From sequence record OP870147.1: 64,000 nt of DNA; one strand, written 5' to 3'. Source of the DNA: Escherichia phage vB_Eco_F31. The notes below the pieces were generated by a model that was not told the DNA's origin, searched no databases, and saw nothing but the letters and a program-made list of their open reading frames with translations. The first letter of the stretch is position 1, and every line of letters begins with the position of its first letter. This document shows, piece after piece, positions 15,284 through 62,777 of this stretch. Position numbers and translations under genes: made by a program.

Positions 15284-15291
15284 TATTTATA
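15284..15291 (-). promoter_or_regulatory. late promoter box TATAAATA upstream of soc
   Basis: Exact TATAAATA on the minus strand about 30 nt upstream of the soc ATG. Confidence 0.65.
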
Positions 15292-15297
15292 ACTTAA

Positions 15298-15819
15298 TCA
15301 GTAACCATTATCCTGGCGTTCAAAGTTGTGTTGGTTTTTCAGGTAGTAAAGTTTAAAGATTTCTTCAGCGGAAAGACCCAGACCTTGGAACATATTCAGA
15401 ACAAAGTGGAGGATATCAATCATCTCAAATTTAATTTCAAGCTGGTCTTCAGGAGACAGTTCATCGATACGACGATTTCGATATTCAGCATGTTGTGCTT
15501 TCCATGGCTTCCATACACTGCTGGCAGCTTTTTCGCCATTGGACATACCACCAAGTGAAGTCAGCAGTTCACGGAATTCATCATCAATATAATCTTTCTG
15601 ATTACGCAGCCAATCAACAACATCGCCAGCAGTGGCCAATTCATCAGGATGTTTGTTATGTTCAGGCTTGTCATTTGCCAGACGAACCTGTAAAGATTTC
15701 TGCATATCAAGCATTACCTGCAATGGGTCTTTATCTTCGTGAATCAGAGCATTAAAATAAGCTTCTTCTGCTTTATCAACACCAGAAATAAGCTGTGAAC
15801 ATTCGTTAAAGTGTGCCAT
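15298..15819 (-). CDS. 56: dCTP pyrophosphatase (MazG-like), gp56
   Basis: 173 aa; size and synteny next to soc and the primase. Confidence 0.65.
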   Translation of the reverse strand: MAHFNECSQLISGVDKAEEAYFNALIHEDKDPLQVMLDMQKSLQVRLANDKPEHNKHPDELATAGDVVDWLRNQKDYIDDEFRELLTSLGGMSNGEKAASSVWKPWKAQHAEYRNRRIDELSPEDQLEIKFEMIDILHFVLNMFQGLGLSAEEIFKLYYLKNQHNFERQDNGY

Positions 15820-15909
15820 TATTTTTTCCTTTCAATTCAGTATAAGAGAGTTAATTCTAACATTAATTTTATAAAGCGTAATAAATAATAAGGTAACTAA
15901 GGAGATATT

Positions 15910-16107
15910 ATGTTTAAACTTCCATCGTTAATCAACGCTATTAAAGGCAATAAAAAGAAAACTGCTATCGCTGCAATAGTTGTAGGTGGCATTATTTCAT
16001 GGAACTTCGGGATTGCACCATTGTTAGTTGCCCATGGTGTTATAGTTCCTTCTGTTCCGTTGGATACTGTGGTTGATTTGGCCTTTGCTATTGTAGGACT
16101 GGTTTAA
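15910..16107 (+). CDS. small hydrophobic membrane protein (plus strand)
   Basis: 65-aa ORF with strong RBS (AAGGAG-N7-ATG); two predicted TM segments; the only convincing plus-strand ORF in the window. Confidence 0.45.
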   Translation: MFKLPSLINAIKGNKKKTAIAAIVVGGIISWNFGIAPLLVAHGVIVPSVPLDTVVDLAFAIVGLV

Positions 16108-17126
16108 ATCTTCGAATAACGAGATAATCTCATTTTAGCATGCAACCCACTTGAAATATTCTGTTTCATATATTCTAAAATTTCTTGTGGTGTTGCATTT
16201 TCTTTCATTACCATATCATTCACATCCTTTGAACTCCATGGAGCTCGGTCCCAGAACATGACACGTTCGCCTGCATCAACTAATCGCTTCATGCGAGCTA
16301 TAGTATCCGGATGCCTAGGTTCATTATCCATTACCCATACCCGACGTTCTTTAAATGGTACCACATCTAAATCTATTGAGCCGCCTGTAATAGCGATTGC
16401 ATTGGGTATGAATAAACTATCAATAGGGCCTTCCATTACCCAGACGTCTCCTTCCTTAACACGTTCAACACCATAAATTTTTGTTGCAGACTCAAACGCT
16501 TTAATAGTGATATATTTCTGAGGAGCATCTTTACGAAGTGCACGTCCTTGGAATGACTCGGCCTTCCCATCTTTATTAAAAATAGGAATAACTAAACGTG
16601 GTTCGGGAATCTCTTTCTTATACGTACCAGGTTGAATCTTGTTGACCAATTTGGGCCATTCTAATGTGAACCATAATCTGTTCCACGATTCTTTAGGAAT
16701 ACACCGAGACTTAACATATTTCACAATAGGATGCTCTTCAGGCAACTTGTCCAGACGAGAACAAGACGGCAAAGAATTTATAGTCTTTTTCTCTGGCTCC
16801 GGCTTAGCTTCAGGAACCTTTTCAATCTTTGGTTCCATTCTAGCTTTTTCTTTACGAACTTCCATTAGATATTCGCGATAAAGCTCTTCATCATACTCTT
16901 TTAAGTATCCTGAAATTGTATTGTGGTATTGACAGTTATAGCAATGTACATTACCAGGAGTACCACCATAATACCATCCGCGAGCTTTCATTGCATCTGT
17001 CTGGGAGTCGCCACAAACTGGACATCGAAATGTTAATTTAAATGTGCTTGAATTATTGATTTGTCTAAAACGAGGTAGGTGAGAAAACGCACGATAAGCA
17101 AATTCATTATCTATCCATTCAGCCAT
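16104..17126 (-). CDS. 61: DNA primase gp61 (zinc ribbon + Toprim)
   Basis: 340 aa; CPVCGDS...CYNC zinc ribbon; T4 gp61 is 342 aa; syntenic. Confidence 0.8.
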   Translation of the reverse strand: MAEWIDNEFAYRAFSHLPRFRQINNSSTFKLTFRCPVCGDSQTDAMKARGWYYGGTPGNVHCYNCQYHNTISGYLKEYDEELYREYLMEVRKEKARMEPKIEKVPEAKPEPEKKTINSLPSCSRLDKLPEEHPIVKYVKSRCIPKESWNRLWFTLEWPKLVNKIQPGTYKKEIPEPRLVIPIFNKDGKAESFQGRALRKDAPQKYITIKAFESATKIYGVERVKEGDVWVMEGPIDSLFIPNAIAITGGSIDLDVVPFKERRVWVMDNEPRHPDTIARMKRLVDAGERVMFWDRAPWSSKDVNDMVMKENATPQEILEYMKQNISSGLHAKMRLSRYSKI

Positions 17127-17652: not shown

Positions 17653-17850
17653 TTAATCAATTACAAAGATTGCTTTGTCACCATTTATATCTGTGACTTC
17701 ATATGTAGTGCCTTCATACTGTGGAATATTCCAAATTACACCATCATTAGCTTTTACGCTAATATGGCATTGGTGTTTTGAAACAACTTCATAATCTTCA
17801 AAACTTGTAAAAACACTAATTTTAGAACCAGTGCAAATTGCAGTAGTCAT
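17653..17850 (-). CDS. small hypothetical protein
   Basis: 65-aa ORF, tightly packed. Confidence 0.35.
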   Translation of the reverse strand: MTTAICTGSKISVFTSFEDYEVVSKHQCHISVKANDGVIWNIPQYEGTTYEVTDINGDKAIFVID

Positions 17851-17851
17851 T

Positions 17852-18511
17852 TTAACCTCGATTCATAAATGCATTAAATATTTGGTCATCAACAGAAATT
17901 TCTAATTCGACTTCAATTGCTTCAGCCTTTTCTTCAGGTGGTAATTCGTATCCACACACTACAATTTTTTCATCGATATCAAAATATACAGAAGCAATAC
18001 GATTAATGTTATTTTCAGTTAAGTCTAAATCAACATCAACATCTTTTTGACCTACACTTAAAGGATAACTAATACGGGTTATTTTATTATCTTTAACAAA
18101 GAGTCCACCAACATACTCTGTACTACGTTTGAAGTTTACACGTTTCCGAAATGAAAGATATGATGCATCTTTACCATGAGCTCGGCTCATAGGACATAAT
18201 GAATAGCTAGAATAAGAGATGTCAAATCCTACACCTTCAATATGAGCCAACGTGTCATGATTAAACCAATTATAATCATACGCCAAATCCATTATATTGT
18301 AATATGTGAAAGGCACAGGATTAACATCATATGTTGTACCTTTAAAATCTGCCCAGGCAACGATTTCGTTATCTTTAACAATTACAAAAATTACACCAAT
18401 ATGGTATCCGTTATTATTTTCATTCGGCGTTATATTATAACATTGTGCATTAGGAAATTTACCATATTTAAATGGTGCGTTTTTGTGCATATAATAAATC
18501 ATATTATTCAC
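17852..18511 (-). CDS. hypothetical protein (61.2 position)
   Basis: 219-aa ORF. Confidence 0.5.
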   Translation of the reverse strand: MNNMIYYMHKNAPFKYGKFPNAQCYNITPNENNNGYHIGVIFVIVKDNEIVAWADFKGTTYDVNPVPFTYYNIMDLAYDYNWFNHDTLAHIEGVGFDISYSSYSLCPMSRAHGKDASYLSFRKRVNFKRSTEYVGGLFVKDNKITRISYPLSVGQKDVDVDLDLTENNINRIASVYFDIDEKIVVCGYELPPEEKAEAIEVELEISVDDQIFNAFMNRG

Positions 18512-47366: not shown

Positions 47367-47401
47367 GATAAACCCTTACCTTAAATAGATAAGGGTATTT
47401 A

Positions 47402-47827
47402 TTAACTTAAACGTCTTTCTAAATATTCAATGTATTCTGCGGCTGCTTGCATCAGGTTACCTTCATAGCCGTCGTTATTTTCTTGTCCGGCTAATTTAGC
47501 TAATGCATAAGAAATTCGTTCACCTTCGAATTCACCAAGTTTACTACCTAGCACATCTGCAATATCAGCCGAATCAATTTCTTCGAGTTCATCTATTGAA
47601 TGTGATTCCCAGAAGCACCAAAGAGAAGTATCACGGTCATAGATGCAAAGTTTCTCACCAGTGTTCAACATCACTTCAATAATGCCATGGTCGCCATAAC
47701 CATCTTCGGTCGTAGTACCAATTACCTTGATGATTGTATCTTTCTTTAATTCAGGAAACTTAACTTGCAGTTCTTCGTCGTCTTTAACAATCTTGAACCA
47801 CTTACCACGTGTGTCGGAAATATTCAT
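47402..47827 (-). CDS. hypothetical protein (pin position)
   Basis: about 141 aa from MNISDTRGKWF; syntenic with T4 pin, unverified. Confidence 0.4.
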   Translation of the reverse strand: MNISDTRGKWFKIVKDDEELQVKFPELKKDTIIKVIGTTTEDGYGDHGIIEVMLNTGEKLCIYDRDTSLWCFWESHSIDELEEIDSADIADVLGSKLGEFEGERISYALAKLAGQENNDGYEGNLMQAAAEYIEYLERRLS

Positions 47828-55233: not shown

Positions 55234-55264
55234 ATTTACCTCAAGTTAAGAGTTATTTATCTAC

Positions 55265-56254
55265 TTATTTATAGTAAGAATTATGATTTTCGAGATAGAC
55301 TTGCTCAAGGAAATCATCCCAGAAACTCATATCTACTTTTTGTTGCATACCGTTCTTAGCGGCTTGTTCTGATGCTTGTTCTACCTGGTCAACAATGTCT
55401 TCCAGGAATTCTTGTACAGTTTTAAACGTATGTTTACCAAGCTTAACATCGAGAATAAATGGAGCATCCTGAAGTGGGTAAACCAGGTCGCCGGTTTTGT
55501 AAATTTCCAATAATTGAAGTCCACCGCGACATGCATGACTCAATGCTTTCCAGTCAATACCTTCGTTAGCTTCTGCCTTACGAGCACGTTCGCCATAGTT
55601 CTCTTCCAGTTTAACCAGGATGGCATTGAACTCTTTATTGGTTAACGTATCTTGGAATTTACGGTCTAACAGATTATAGAATGTTTGCTTACCTGTTTTC
55701 TCGTTTTCGGTTTCAACCCACGAAGCAAATTCACCTACAGGCAGAACATTCTTCATATGTGATAAACGAATTACTGCACCATTATCAAAGTATTGTCCCC
55801 ATTCATTAGAACGTTTAAGGGCTTGACGAAGAACAGCCAGTCGAGAACCCTTGACACCGTATTTAGAAGCTTGCTTACGGACATACCCCAAATAAGATTT
55901 CATGTTAGTGGTATAGAAACGAGACCTGTTATCTTGAATATACTTCCACACGTCAGGCAAATCAGATTTAACCACTAGACTTGGTGGAGTGTGAAGCATA
56001 TCTAATGCGACAGTTTCACCATCCGCAGCTAGTTTAAAGAAATATTTGAGACTGTACAACTCATGATCCACATCGTCTTTTGTGTTCTTAGAAGATGTGT
56101 TATTCGTGTTCTTGCTCATGTGTTCTTTAACGTTACCGGTCAAGATATCACGAGCATGAGGGACATAAATTTCTTTAAAATCGACGTCAGATTCAGGAGT
56201 AGACGTTCCATAAAGGTGGCTACCAAAGTAGCCTTTCATAATTGTTTTCATCAT
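55265..56254 (-). CDS. Pol-beta superfamily nucleotidyltransferase (NTP_transf_2-like)
   Basis: 329 aa; N-terminal GSHLYGTSTPESDVDF fits GS-x9-13-[DE]h[DE]h; C-terminal helical region. Confidence 0.5.
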   Translation of the reverse strand: MMKTIMKGYFGSHLYGTSTPESDVDFKEIYVPHARDILTGNVKEHMSKNTNNTSSKNTKDDVDHELYSLKYFFKLAADGETVALDMLHTPPSLVVKSDLPDVWKYIQDNRSRFYTTNMKSYLGYVRKQASKYGVKGSRLAVLRQALKRSNEWGQYFDNGAVIRLSHMKNVLPVGEFASWVETENEKTGKQTFYNLLDRKFQDTLTNKEFNAILVKLEENYGERARKAEANEGIDWKALSHACRGGLQLLEIYKTGDLVYPLQDAPFILDVKLGKHTFKTVQEFLEDIVDQVEQASEQAAKNGMQQKVDMSFWDDFLEQVYLENHNSYYK

Positions 56255-58421: not shown

Positions 58422-58634
58422 TTAATTTTGGCCAGTATTTATTTTTCGCCTTTGGACGGCCTTAACATCTGCGAGGTATTTTTCCAGCTTGCGCTTGCGT
58501 GTATAATCAGCTTTAGAACCAGTTTGACGGATATCCTCGTTTAAATGAGAAATAGAATGTCCTAATTCTCTTCGGATTTCATCCAATTGGGTTACAGTAA
58601 GATTACGAAGTTGTCTTTCGTTTAATTGCTGCAT
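58422..58634 (-). CDS. small basic hypothetical protein
   Basis: 70-aa ORF between rI and tk. Confidence 0.4.
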
Positions 58635-58661
58635 ATATACCTCTTGGTTAGATATTAGTAT

Positions 58662-59243
58662 TTATAACAACCCTGTCAAATCGTTCCAATGCTTCCGGCA
58701 TAATGACACATATCTATCGGTATCACCAATTTCAATTTGACTGCCATCTGTAATTGGAAGTCCGTCTTCCGTGACTCTAGCTACCATTGTGGCCTTTTTA
58801 CCACAATGACAGACACCTTTAAGTTCAACAAGCTTATCGGCAATAGCCATTAATGCTTGAGAACCTTCAAATAGATTACCTTTAAAATCTGTTCGTAGTC
58901 CATATGCCATTACCGGCACATTGTATACGTCAACAATACGACTAAGTTGATACACCTTTTCAGTAGTTAAGAACTGAGCTTCATCAACAAATACACAGTG
59001 AATATCCTTTTGTGCTGCAGCCCATTTATAGAATTCAAAGATATCCATGTCTTTTGTAATTATATTGGCGTCCTGTCGAATACCAATACGAGAGACTATT
59101 TCACCTTTTGAATCGCGAGTATCAATAGCCGGTTTAAGAACTAATACACCCATGCCACGTTCTTTATAGTTATGTGCGGCAGTAAGTAATGAAGCAGACT
59201 TACCAGCGTTCATAGCGGCATAGGTAAAAATTAAACTAGCCAT
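58662..59243 (-). CDS. tk: thymidine kinase
   Basis: 193 aa; Walker A AAMNAGKS; C-terminal zinc-site cysteines (CHCGKKA...CRKH); T4 tk is 193 aa. Confidence 0.85.
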   Translation of the reverse strand: MASLIFTYAAMNAGKSASLLTAAHNYKERGMGVLVLKPAIDTRDSKGEIVSRIGIRQDANIITKDMDIFEFYKWAAAQKDIHCVFVDEAQFLTTEKVYQLSRIVDVYNVPVMAYGLRTDFKGNLFEGSQALMAIADKLVELKGVCHCGKKATMVARVTEDGLPITDGSQIEIGDTDRYVSLCRKHWNDLTGLL

Positions 59244-62414: not shown

Positions 62415-62641
62415 TATAGACTCTCAGTAAAGGTACGAGCGATAACGTCGCGCTGCTGTTCCGGAGTCAGAGAGTTAAAGCGAACTGCATAACCGGATAC
62501 ACGGATGGTCAACTGCGGATATTTTTCTGGATGCTTAACTGCATCTTCCAGAGTTTCACGACGCAGAACATTAACGTTCAGGTGTTGACCACCTTCAATT
62601 TTAACTTTAGGGTTGATGTTCAATTTCAATTTCACGGGCAT
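62414..62641 (-). CDS. grcA: GrcA/YfiD-like autonomous glycyl-radical cofactor, C-terminal domain only
   Basis: 75 aa; glycyl-radical motif RVSGYAVRF; residues from [11 protein letters not shown] to the C-terminus match enterobacterial GrcA as I recall it; higher GC and host-like codons. Confidence 0.6.
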
Positions 62642-62777
62642 TCAAACCGTAGAAAATTTCCGGGTCTACAATAGCGTCTTCTTTAAAAGTCTTAGAGACA
62701 ATAATCCGGGCTTGAGTACCGTCTTCAAAATAAATAGTGCCTTTGTGTGTGCCTTCAAGAATTTGATATGCTTTCAT
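62607..62777 (-). CDS. GrcA-like N-terminal fragment (different frame from the C-terminal domain)
   Basis: 56-aa ORF by manual translation; [18 protein letters not shown] resembles GrcA GEARCIVAKAGYAEDEVV; overlaps the C-domain ORF by 35 nt. Confidence 0.4.

What the first reader, a model, noticed from the sequence alone, without database searches (positions are those of the whole stretch)
15910..16107. Lone plus-strand gene for a small hydrophobic protein, convergent with the primase gene
This is the only plus-strand ORF with a strong RBS in 64 kb of minus-strand genes. It encodes a 65-aa double-TM peptide, its stop overlaps the 3' end of gene 61 by 4 nt, and it is preceded by an AT-rich TATAAA-containing region. 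It may be expressed at a different time or act as an antisense or convergent regulator.
Basis: seen in the sequence. Interest (0 to 1): 0.4.

Follow-up and report, generated by a model that had tools for sequence, protein, structure and literature searches.

The report
Conserved late-gene small membrane protein ORF
This is a real, already catalogued but uncharacterised T4-family phage gene for a 65-residue membrane protein, probably switched on late in infection; it is ordinary, apart from being missing from the reference T4 annotation.

Summary
The ORF at 15910-16107 (+) is exactly as described: 65 aa, AAGGAG 5 nt before the ATG, stop overlapping the gene 61 (primase) stop by 4 nt. It is the only plus-strand ATG ORF with a strong Shine-Dalgarno in the window.

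It is a genuine gene, not chance. It is the ortholog of RB69ORF029w (PHROG 2024, function unknown). Homologs occur in about 800 T-even-type phage records across at least 8 genera, next to the 3' end of gene 61 in every locus examined. Substitutions show a clear coding signature.

T4 has an intact 66-aa copy between dam and 61 that RefSeq does not annotate.

An ATAAATA late-promoter core lies upstream in 11 of 12 aligned phages. In the window it is AATAAATA, at 15880-15887. The motif is strongly depleted in the window and otherwise marks soc, gene 49, rI and two other gene starts. The gene is therefore most probably a late, gp55-dependent gene.

Two details need correcting. The protein has one transmembrane helix plus a short C-terminal helix, not two.

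A primary antisense role is not supported. With no terminator found, antisense read-through into gene 61 is possible as a side effect.

The biochemical function is unknown. Interest is low to moderate.

The parts
15910..16107 (+). Coding sequence (65 codons plus TAA) of the small membrane protein. It is the ortholog of RB69ORF029w and a member of phrog_2024.
   Evidence: Searches give the ORF. One search gives the phrog_2024 match (E=1.6e-27, residues 1-65 of 65). One search finds 692 phage records. Searches show the coding-type substitution pattern. One search shows identity to WBF80789.1 of Escherichia phage vB_Eco_F31.
15899..15904 (+). Shine-Dalgarno sequence AAGGAG, 5 nt before the ATG.
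   Evidence: An AGGAG/GGAGG-type block is conserved before the start in all 12 aligned phages.
15880..15887 (+). T4-type late-promoter-like element AATAAATA (TATAAATA with A at -13). The inferred transcription start is near 15893, giving a leader of about 17 nt.
   Evidence: the motif is depleted (8 found, 29.7 +/- 5.0 expected) and occurs only twice on the plus strand. ATAAATA is conserved in 11 of 12 aligned phages and TAAATA in all 12; the same motif precedes soc, gene 49 and rI in this window. PMC2988020: A(-13) is the commonest T4 variant. The start site is inferred, not mapped.
15910..15960 (+). Codons 1-17: cationic N-terminal segment (net charge +5), predicted cytoplasmic. The short helix at residues 4-9 is amphipathic.
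   Evidence: charge, hydrophobic moment; helix 4-9; the KxxLxxAIKGxKK motif is conserved in subfamily A.
15961..16035 (+). Codons 18-42: the single transmembrane helix, carrying invariant Trp31, Asn32 and Pro37.
   Evidence: best 19-mer windows start at residues 18-23. AlphaFold2 helix 14-41, pLDDT about 90; a published TM prediction of 21-41 for RB69ORF029w; invariant residues.
16036..16104 (+). Codons 43-65: a Gly43/Pro47 loop and a short C-terminal helix (52-62) with two acidic residues. Predicted periplasmic or at the membrane interface; too short to be a second TM.
   Evidence: loop 42-51 and an 11-residue helix; insertion energy sums of 4-8 kcal/mol, net charge -2.
16104..16107 (.). TTAA, where the two convergent stop codons overlap. 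There is no intergenic space and no terminator between the two genes.
   Evidence: The same 4-nt overlap occurs in T4, RB69, Marfa and Entb_45. No stable hairpin lies downstream (z=+0.72).
16104..17126 (-). Gene 61, DNA primase: the convergent neighbour.
   Evidence: phrog_47 DNA primase, E=3.1e-102; annotated as primase in relatives.
15298..15819 (-). Gene 56, dCTP pyrophosphatase: the divergent neighbour.
   Evidence: dUTPase_2; phrog_173..
15854..15877 (-). Predicted MotA-type middle promoter of gene 56. The MotA box GCTTTA lies at 15877-15872 and the -10 TAGAAT at 15859-15854, with a 12-nt spacer.
   Evidence: Read. The equivalent RB69 site was published as Pm:16038 (-), 15998-16038, score 21.6 (PMC1524935 supplement). 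The block is conserved where gene 56 is the left neighbour.

Best explanation
What it is. The ORF is a genuine, conserved T-even phage gene (RB69ORF029w, PHROG 2024). It encodes a 65-residue single-pass inner-membrane protein. It is most probably transcribed only late in infection, by the gp55/gp33/gp45-dependent late RNA polymerase.

Shown here:
- The reading frame is under purifying selection.
- It lies next to the 3' end of primase gene 61 in every locus examined, across at least 8 genera.
- A T4 late-promoter core, ATAAATA, is conserved 14-31 nt upstream of the start.
- The protein has a cationic N-terminus, one hydrophobic helix with invariant Trp-Asn, Pro37, Gly43 and Pro47, and a short C-terminal helix.

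Inferred:
- Transcription starts near 15893, giving a short leader carrying AAGGAG.
- The N-terminus stays in the cytoplasm (positive-inside rule) and the 23-residue C-tail faces the periplasm.
- Because it is late-expressed, membrane-embedded and dispensable, the protein most likely acts at the cell envelope in the second half of infection. My best guess is an accessory modulator of lysis timing or lysis inhibition, acting through helix-helix contacts mediated by the conserved mid-membrane Asn. That specific role is about 30% likely.
- With no terminator after the ORF, its late transcript probably continues antisense into gene 61. I regard this as a by-product of the compact convergent layout.
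For: Coding.
- pS is 0.56-0.78 against pN 0.31-0.37 between genera.
- Codon-position differences run pos3 >> pos1 > pos2: Marfa/JS98 10/5/39, Entb_45/PEi20 2/3/21.
- 685 of 692 tblastn records are nearly full length.
- The match to phrog_2024 is full length.

Conservation and synteny.
- Subfamily A is in 692 records, including T4, T2, T6, RB69 and Gaprivervirus.
- Subfamily B is in 122 records, including Dhakavirus and phages of Klebsiella, Enterobacter, Pectobacterium, Salmonella and Edwardsiella.
- Both lie next to the 3' end of gene 61, usually overlapping it.

Late promoter.
- AATAAATA lies at 15880-15887.
- ATAAATA is present in 11 of 12 aligned phages while the flanks have diverged.
- The motif is depleted in the window: 8 found against 29.7 +/- 5.0 expected, and only 2 on the plus strand.
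- Five of the other six motif loci sit 20-31 nt before gene starts, including soc, endonuclease VII and the rI antiholin.
- A(-13) is the commonest T4 variant and position -13 is loosely conserved in RB69 (PMC2988020; PMC1524935).
- Early and middle transcription runs only on the other strand.
- No sigma-70-like site precedes the ORF.

Protein.
- AlphaFold2 gives mean pLDDT 83, with helices at 4-9, 14-41 and 52-62.
- Hydropathy and charge: N-terminus +5, C-tail -2.
- A published prediction for RB69ORF029w gives one TM at 21-41 and no signal peptide.
- Invariant residues are M1, W31, N32, P37, G43 and P47.

Dispensability.
- Phage a48 carries a frameshifted copy.
- T6 has ATT in place of the first ATG.
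- The B copy has decayed in VR20.
Against: - I found no experimental evidence of a transcript, peptide or phenotype in the searchable literature.
- The published HMM search for RB69 late promoters did not list a site here.
- Position -13 varies (A, G, C or T) among lineages, and T4 itself has GATAAATA. Promoter strength is therefore unknown.
- CGG4-1 has only TTAAATA.
- The TM segment is only marginally hydrophobic in several members: simple insertion energy sums of +0.8 to +3 kcal/mol.
- The proposed envelope or lysis role rests on timing and location alone. There is no match in Pfam, NCBIfam, PADLOC or the PDB, and no informative fold match.
Confidence: 0.75

Rival explanations
1. The element works mainly at the RNA level. 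A late plus-strand transcript acts as an antisense or convergent-transcription regulator that shuts down primase gene 61, and the ORF is incidental.
For: The layout is convergent, with a 4-nt stop overlap and no room for a terminator. No terminator-like site appears on the plus strand before about 25.5 kb, and no stable hairpin follows the stop. Linkage to the 3' end of gene 61 is kept in all genera examined, while the left-hand neighbour varies: gene 56, dam or other ORFs. T4 is known to transcribe both strands at some sites at different times (PMC2988020).
Against: The protein sequence itself is under purifying selection, and six residues are invariant across subfamilies sharing only about 20% identity. 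A strong conserved Shine-Dalgarno sequence is kept. In VR20 and TH57 the gene sits about 200 nt from gene 61 and is still conserved. No Rfam family matches.
Confidence: 0.07
2. The protein is a holin or pinholin-like lysis effector: a two-TM hairpin that forms membrane lesions. One UniProt entry (phage OE5505) is labelled this way.
For: The protein is small, hydrophobic and probably late-expressed. It has a conserved Asn in the membrane helix. One homolog carries the name 'Holin' in UniRef and BFVD.
Against: It matches no holin family in Pfam or PHROGs. Only one membrane-spanning helix is predicted. The C-terminus is hydrophobic and acidic, not the charged hydrophilic tail typical of holins. 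From established knowledge, T-even phages already depend on holin T for lysis. The copies in a48 and T6 are damaged. The 'Holin' label is a single automatic name among hundreds of 'hypothetical protein' entries.
Confidence: 0.1
3. It is a late inner-membrane factor with a role other than lysis. Examples: a membrane anchor or chaperone for prohead initiation, a minor virion or ejection component, or a late-acting block to superinfecting DNA.
For: From established knowledge, most T4 late genes are for virion structure, assembly or lysis. The protein's predicted topology, with the N-terminus in the cytoplasm, would suit tethering a cytoplasmic partner through the conserved cationic N-terminal helix. 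The only three T4 ORFans regarded as late (5.1, 5.3, 5.4) are thought to be virion-related (PMC12407873).
Against: There is no homology or structural match to any morphogenetic, virion or exclusion protein. The one annotation 'putative head morphogenesis protein', in T6, comes from a record whose automatic labels are plainly unreliable; in it gp56 is described as 'similar to ferredoxin'.
Confidence: 0.2
4. It is a chance open reading frame in an AT-rich spacer between genes 56 and 61.
For: The ORF is short (65 codons). It has no Pfam domain. It is not annotated in the T4 reference genome.
Against: It is conserved as an intact frame in about 800 genomes at 20-98% identity, with saturated synonymous sites. 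It has a conserved Shine-Dalgarno sequence and promoter motif. Its G+C by codon position (0.51/0.37/0.31) resembles that of gene 61 (0.48/0.39/0.30).
Confidence: 0.02

Closest known systems
RB69ORF029w / PHROG family phrog_2024 (conserved hypothetical protein of Tevenvirinae)
   Same: It is the same gene family. The HMM match is full length (E=1.6e-27). The RB69 protein is 95% identical, lies in the same position and has the same 4-nt overlap with gene 61. RB69ORF029w was published as a novel ORF with one predicted TM at 21-41 (PMC1524935 supplement).
   Different: Nothing material differs. The family has no assigned function, and I found no published expression class for it.
T4 late genes embedded in the early region (soc, gene 49, rI)
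   Same: Each has a short leader, a Shine-Dalgarno sequence, and a (T/A)ATAAATA element 20-31 nt before the start codon. In this window soc, endonuclease VII and the rI antiholin all have this layout.
   Different: Those genes lie on the minus strand, so early or middle read-through can also reach them. This ORF lies on the plus strand, so a late promoter is its only evident source of transcription.
T4 lysis-control membrane proteins (holin T, antiholin RI)
   Same: These are late-expressed inner-membrane proteins of T-even phages, scattered in the genome rather than grouped in a lysis cassette. The predicted topology here, N-terminus inside and C-terminus outside with a single TM, is that of holin T (established knowledge).
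   Different: There is no sequence relationship. Pfam's antiholin family matches the window's rI gene but not this ORF. The periplasmic part here is only about 23 residues, whereas T and RI have globular periplasmic domains.
Small two-TM holins and pinholins (for example S21 68 of phage 21)
   Same: They are of similar size (60-70 aa) and hydrophobic, with polar residues inside the membrane helix.
   Different: Only one helix here is long enough to span the membrane. The charged tail is N-terminal rather than C-terminal. No family match was found.

Membership tests
phrog_2024 / RB69ORF029w family | Full-length sequence match to the family profile | tested here: met
   E=1.6e-27, residues 1-65 against profile positions 1-65 of 65. 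95% identity to RB69ORF029w.
phrog_2024 / RB69ORF029w family | Conserved position: plus strand, convergent with the 3' end of primase gene 61 | tested here: met
   Seen in the window, JK45, G2469, RB69, T4, T6, a20, VR25, Marfa, JS98, PM2, CGG4-1, Entb_45 and PEi20.
T4-type late gene (gp55-dependent) | TATAAATA-type element a short distance upstream of the coding start | tested here: met
   AATAAATA lies at 15880-15887, 22 nt before the ATG. A(-13) is the commonest variant in T4, at 9 of 50 sites (PMC2988020).
T4-type late gene (gp55-dependent) | Conservation of the element across relatives despite diverged flanks | tested here: met
   ATAAATA is present in 11 of 12 aligned phages and TAAATA in all 12. 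The motif is depleted elsewhere in the window.
T4-type late gene (gp55-dependent) | RNA 5' end about 6 nt downstream of the element, appearing after DNA replication begins and dependent on gp55, gp33 and gp45 | not testable with these tools
   No transcript data were available. No paper in the searchable library reports one.
Holins (label carried by one homolog) | Match to a described holin family | tested here: not met
   No Pfam family matches and the only PHROG match is an unknown-function family. Foldseek against viral models returns only the protein's own family.
Holins (label carried by one homolog) | Hydrophilic, highly charged C-terminal tail after the last TM | tested here: not met
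   The C-terminal 22 residues are hydrophobic, with net charge -2 and no basic residue.
Holins (label carried by one homolog) | Lethal membrane permeabilisation that releases endolysin | not testable with these tools
   This needs an expression experiment.
   The AlphaFold2 helices are 14-41 and 52-62, the second only 11 residues. The best C-terminal windows give unfavourable insertion sums of 4-8 kcal/mol. The published prediction gives one TM at 21-41.
cis-antisense RNA regulator of gene 61 | Conservation explained by the RNA rather than by an encoded protein | tested here: not met
   The substitution pattern is that of a protein-coding frame. No Rfam family matches.
cis-antisense RNA regulator of gene 61 | A transcript that extends into the target gene | tested here: inconclusive
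   No terminator or stable hairpin follows the stop, so read-through is plausible. It has not been observed.

The most novel reading that the evidence does not exclude
This would be an overlooked late gene of the T-even phages, absent from the reference T4 annotation. It would encode a new single-pass inner-membrane regulator of lysis timing or lysis inhibition, or another envelope process. Its unterminated late transcript would also help silence primase gene 61 by antisense pairing or transcriptional collision.
Probability: 0.15. Interest if true: 0.55.

Novelty: already known. Interest (0 to 1): 0.3.

Why it matters
The gene is already in the databases as a conserved hypothetical protein, so the finding itself is not new. 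Three points have modest value.

1. The reference T4 genome (NC_000866) lacks this intact, conserved ORF at 17738-17938 (+). Omics studies that rely on that annotation cannot detect it.
2. A recent T4 paper regards only three T4 ORFans (5.1, 5.3, 5.4) as late-expressed (PMC12407873). This would be a fourth, and the only membrane-embedded one.
3. It is a cheap target for mutagenesis. A 65-residue protein, conserved across at least 8 genera, could be tested directly for a role in lysis timing, lysis inhibition or envelope integrity.

Tried and rejected
- Homology searches for function found nothing informative. Pfam, NCBIfam, PADLOC and PDB sequence searches gave no credible hit.
- An exhaustive HMMER search of 1.84 billion representatives found only two real clusters. 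Two further hits were long repetitive proteins sharing a chance 'NFGIxPL' string, which I rejected.
- Foldseek against viral models returned only members of the protein's own family.
- Rfam found no RNA family in 15600-16500.
- I looked for a terminator or hairpin after the ORF and found none.
- I looked for a sigma-70-type promoter on the plus strand and found none before the ORF.
- Literature searches for transcript, ribosome-profiling or proteomic evidence in T4, and for the names RB69ORF029w and RB32ORF030w, found nothing. The Miller 2003 T4 genome review is not held.
- The T6 label 'putative head morphogenesis protein' was rejected because that record's automatic labels are unreliable.
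- The UniRef label 'Holin' for the OE5505 homolog was rejected as unsupported.
- A scan of IMG/VR added no new diversity.

Full report
**Observation**

The sequence shows an ATG ORF at 15910-16107 on the plus strand. It encodes 65 residues and is preceded by AAGGAG (15899-15904) with a 5-nt spacer.
- Its TAA overlaps the stop codon of a 340-aa minus-strand gene (16104-17126) by 4 nt, TTAA.
- That neighbour is the T4-type primase gp61 (phrog_47, E=3.1e-102).
- The divergent left-hand neighbour (15298-15819, minus) is the dCTPase gp56.
- The 90-nt spacer between gene 56 and the ORF is 21% G+C.
- A scan of every plus-strand ATG ORF of at least 30 aa for a Shine-Dalgarno match of at least 5 nt returned this ORF alone.
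- The other long plus-strand frames have no RBS and read like antisense frames of minus-strand genes.

**Origin and annotation status**

The window is a T-even phage of the RB69 group (genus Mosigvirus).
- The 2-kb stretch is 98% identical to Escherichia phage vB_EcoM_G2469 and many others.
- The 65-aa protein is identical to WBF80789.1 of Escherichia phage vB_Eco_F31.
- Relatives annotate the ORF as 'hypothetical protein' on the plus strand.
- It is RB69ORF029w in RB69 and RB32ORF030w in RB14 and RB51.
- It matches PHROG family 2024 (unknown function) over its full length (E=1.6e-27).
- Pfam, NCBIfam and PADLOC have nothing for it.

**A real gene, not a chance frame**

- tblastn finds the protein in 692 phage records, 685 of them nearly full length. 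They span Tequatrovirus (T4, T2, T6; about 55-57% identity), Mosigvirus (over 90%) and Gaprivervirus (45-49%).
- Between genera, synonymous sites are close to saturation (pS 0.56-0.78) while non-synonymous sites are not (pN 0.31-0.37).
- Differences by codon position follow the coding pattern. Marfa against JS98 gives 10/5/39, and Entb_45 against PEi20 gives 2/3/21.
- G+C by codon position resembles that of gene 61.

**Two subfamilies**

- Gaprivervirus VR25 carries two tandem copies, and the second defines a diverged subfamily B.
- Subfamily B occurs in another 122 records: Dhakavirus JS98, Klebsiella phages Marfa and Potts1, Pectobacterium PM2, Salmonella CGG4-1, and the Kanagawavirus phages Entb_45 and PEi20.
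- Across both subfamilies M1, W31, N32, P37, G43 and P47 are invariant.
- An exhaustive HMMER search of 1.84 billion representatives found only two genuine clusters, so nothing turned up outside this phage group at this sensitivity.
- In every locus examined the gene is next to the 3' end of gene 61, usually with the same 4-nt overlap. The left-hand neighbour varies: gene 56, dam in T4, or other ORFs.

**T4**

The T4 RefSeq record has no feature between dam (ends 17625) and gene 61 (starts 17935). An intact 66-aa homolog with AAAGGAGG before its ATG lies at 17738-17938 on the plus strand. A newer automatic annotation of a T4 strain does call it, as phrog 2024. The exact T4 protein has no NCBI accession in the 15-billion-protein collection.

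**When it is expressed**

[quoted passage not shown] Only late transcripts run either way (PMC2988020). No sigma-70-like site precedes the ORF on the plus strand.

AATAAATA lies at 15880-15887, 22 nt upstream of the ATG.
- The T4 late promoter is TATAAATA at -13 to -6.
- A(-13) is the commonest variant, at 9 of 50 T4 sites.
- Position -13 is poorly conserved in RB69-type phages (PMC1524935).

Three lines of evidence argue that this site is functional.
1. ATAAATA is strongly depleted in the window: 8 occurrences on both strands against 29.7 +/- 5.0 in dinucleotide shuffles, and only 2 on the plus strand.
2. Five of the other six motif loci lie 20-31 nt before an SD-ATG. They are soc (PF16855), endonuclease VII (gene 49), the rI antiholin (PF24205), a 70-aa phrog_1826 protein and an 88-aa secreted phrog_2243 protein.
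3. The core is kept upstream of the ORF in 11 of 12 aligned phages, with TAAATA in all 12, while the flanking sequence has diverged and position -13 is A, G, C or T.

I estimate a chance occurrence within a 25-nt window of such AT-rich sequence at roughly 4% per lineage. That figure is my own estimate from composition.

From the consensus geometry I infer a start near 15893 and a 17-nt leader.

One caveat: the published HMM search for RB69 late promoters did not list this site. I found no transcript data in the literature.

**The 'TATAAA'**

Read on the minus strand, the region is GCTTTA, a 12-nt spacer, then TAGAAT, which is a MotA-box middle promoter in front of gene 56.
- The equivalent RB69 site was published as one of the best-scoring predicted middle promoters (Pm:16038, score 21.6).
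- The block is conserved wherever gene 56 is the left-hand neighbour.
- The spacer therefore holds two back-to-back promoters: a middle promoter for gene 56 and a late promoter for this ORF.

**The protein**

- Residues 1-17 are cationic (net +5).
- The best membrane-spanning windows start at residues 18-23.
- The C-terminal 22 residues are hydrophobic but carry two acidic residues and give unfavourable insertion sums.
- AlphaFold2 on a 30-sequence alignment gives mean pLDDT 83, with helices at 4-9, 14-41 and 52-62 and a loop at 42-51 containing the invariant Gly43 and Pro47.
- An 11-residue helix cannot span a bilayer.
- The published prediction for RB69ORF029w is one TM at 21-41 with no signal peptide.

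I therefore read it as a single-pass protein with the N-terminus in the cytoplasm (positive-inside rule) and a short periplasmic or interfacial C-tail. It is not a two-TM hairpin.

**Function**

Nothing in sequence or fold space gives a function.
- One UniRef entry is called 'Holin' and one T6 annotation 'putative head morphogenesis protein'.
- Both are automatic labels without support.
- The defining holin features that I could test are not met.
- The gene appears dispensable. Phage a48 has a frameshifted copy, T6 has ATT for the first ATG, and the B copy has decayed in VR20.

Late timing, membrane location, a conserved mid-membrane Asn and dispensability point to an accessory role at the envelope late in infection. 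My best guess, at about 30%, is modulation of lysis timing or lysis inhibition. Alternatives are a membrane tether in morphogenesis or a late exclusion function.

**Antisense idea**

There is no room for a terminator between the convergent genes.
- No terminator-like site appears on the plus strand for several kilobases.
- The 100 nt after the stop fold no better than shuffled sequence (z=+0.72).
- A late transcript would therefore probably extend antisense into gene 61.
- This may matter, but the conservation pattern is that of a protein.
- The gene stays conserved in VR20 and TH57, where about 200 nt separate it from gene 61.

I treat antisense action as a possible by-product, not the primary function.

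**Verdict**

The feature is an already catalogued conserved hypothetical gene of T-even phages. What this analysis adds:
- a well-supported prediction that it is a late gene for a single-pass inner-membrane protein;
- the recognition of two subfamilies;
- the observation that the T4 reference annotation omits it.

Interest is low to moderate.

Noticed in passing
window 62729-62736 (+): This is the only other plus-strand AATAAATA in the window. It lies inside a minus-strand ORF (62607-62777) with no plus-strand ORF or RBS downstream. It could drive a late antisense RNA or be a chance site.
   Followed up: partly
window 15284-15291, 47396-47403, 55254-55273, 58436-58443, 58659-58666 (all minus strand): All six minus-strand ATAAATA motifs (five loci) sit 20-31 nt upstream of an SD-ATG. 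The genes are soc, endonuclease VII (gene 49), an 88-aa secreted phrog_2243 protein (tandem TATAAATA and GATAAATA), the rI antiholin, and a 70-aa phrog_1826 protein. The motif is about 4-fold depleted overall, so it is a nearly clean marker of late-gene starts in this early region.
   Followed up: yes
window 15854-15877 (-): A MotA-box middle promoter (GCTTTA, 12 nt, TAGAAT) for gene 56 lies back-to-back with the late promoter of the small ORF. It corresponds to the published RB69 site Pm:16038. It may be the counterpart of the T4 oriA promoter region.
   Followed up: partly
L003 4739-4939 (T4 NC_000866 17738-17938, +): The T4 reference annotation has a 310-bp unannotated gap between dam and gene 61. 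The gap holds an intact 66-aa homolog with AAAGGAGG and GATAAATA upstream.
   Followed up: yes
L007 1501-1698 and 1707-1907 (phage VR25); L005 1765-1905 (phage VR20): Gaprivervirus phages carry two tandem paralogs of the gene (subfamilies A and B). In VR20 the B copy has lost its start and is decaying. T4 and RB69 keep only A; Dhakavirus and the Klebsiella phages keep only B.
   Followed up: partly
L004 36640-37408 (phage vB_EcoM_G2469): The closest relative has a second plus-strand gene: 238 aa, with only weak zinc-ribbon-like Pfam hits. It is preceded by TATAAATA and overlaps the gene 46 stop by 4 nt. It is absent from the window, so it is probably a mobile insertion.
   Followed up: partly
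L009 1483-1608 (phage a48); L010 1192-1392 (phage T6): These are damaged copies. Phage a48 has a one-base deletion in an A-run that truncates the N-terminus (or a sequencing error). T6 has ATT in place of the first ATG.
   Followed up: no
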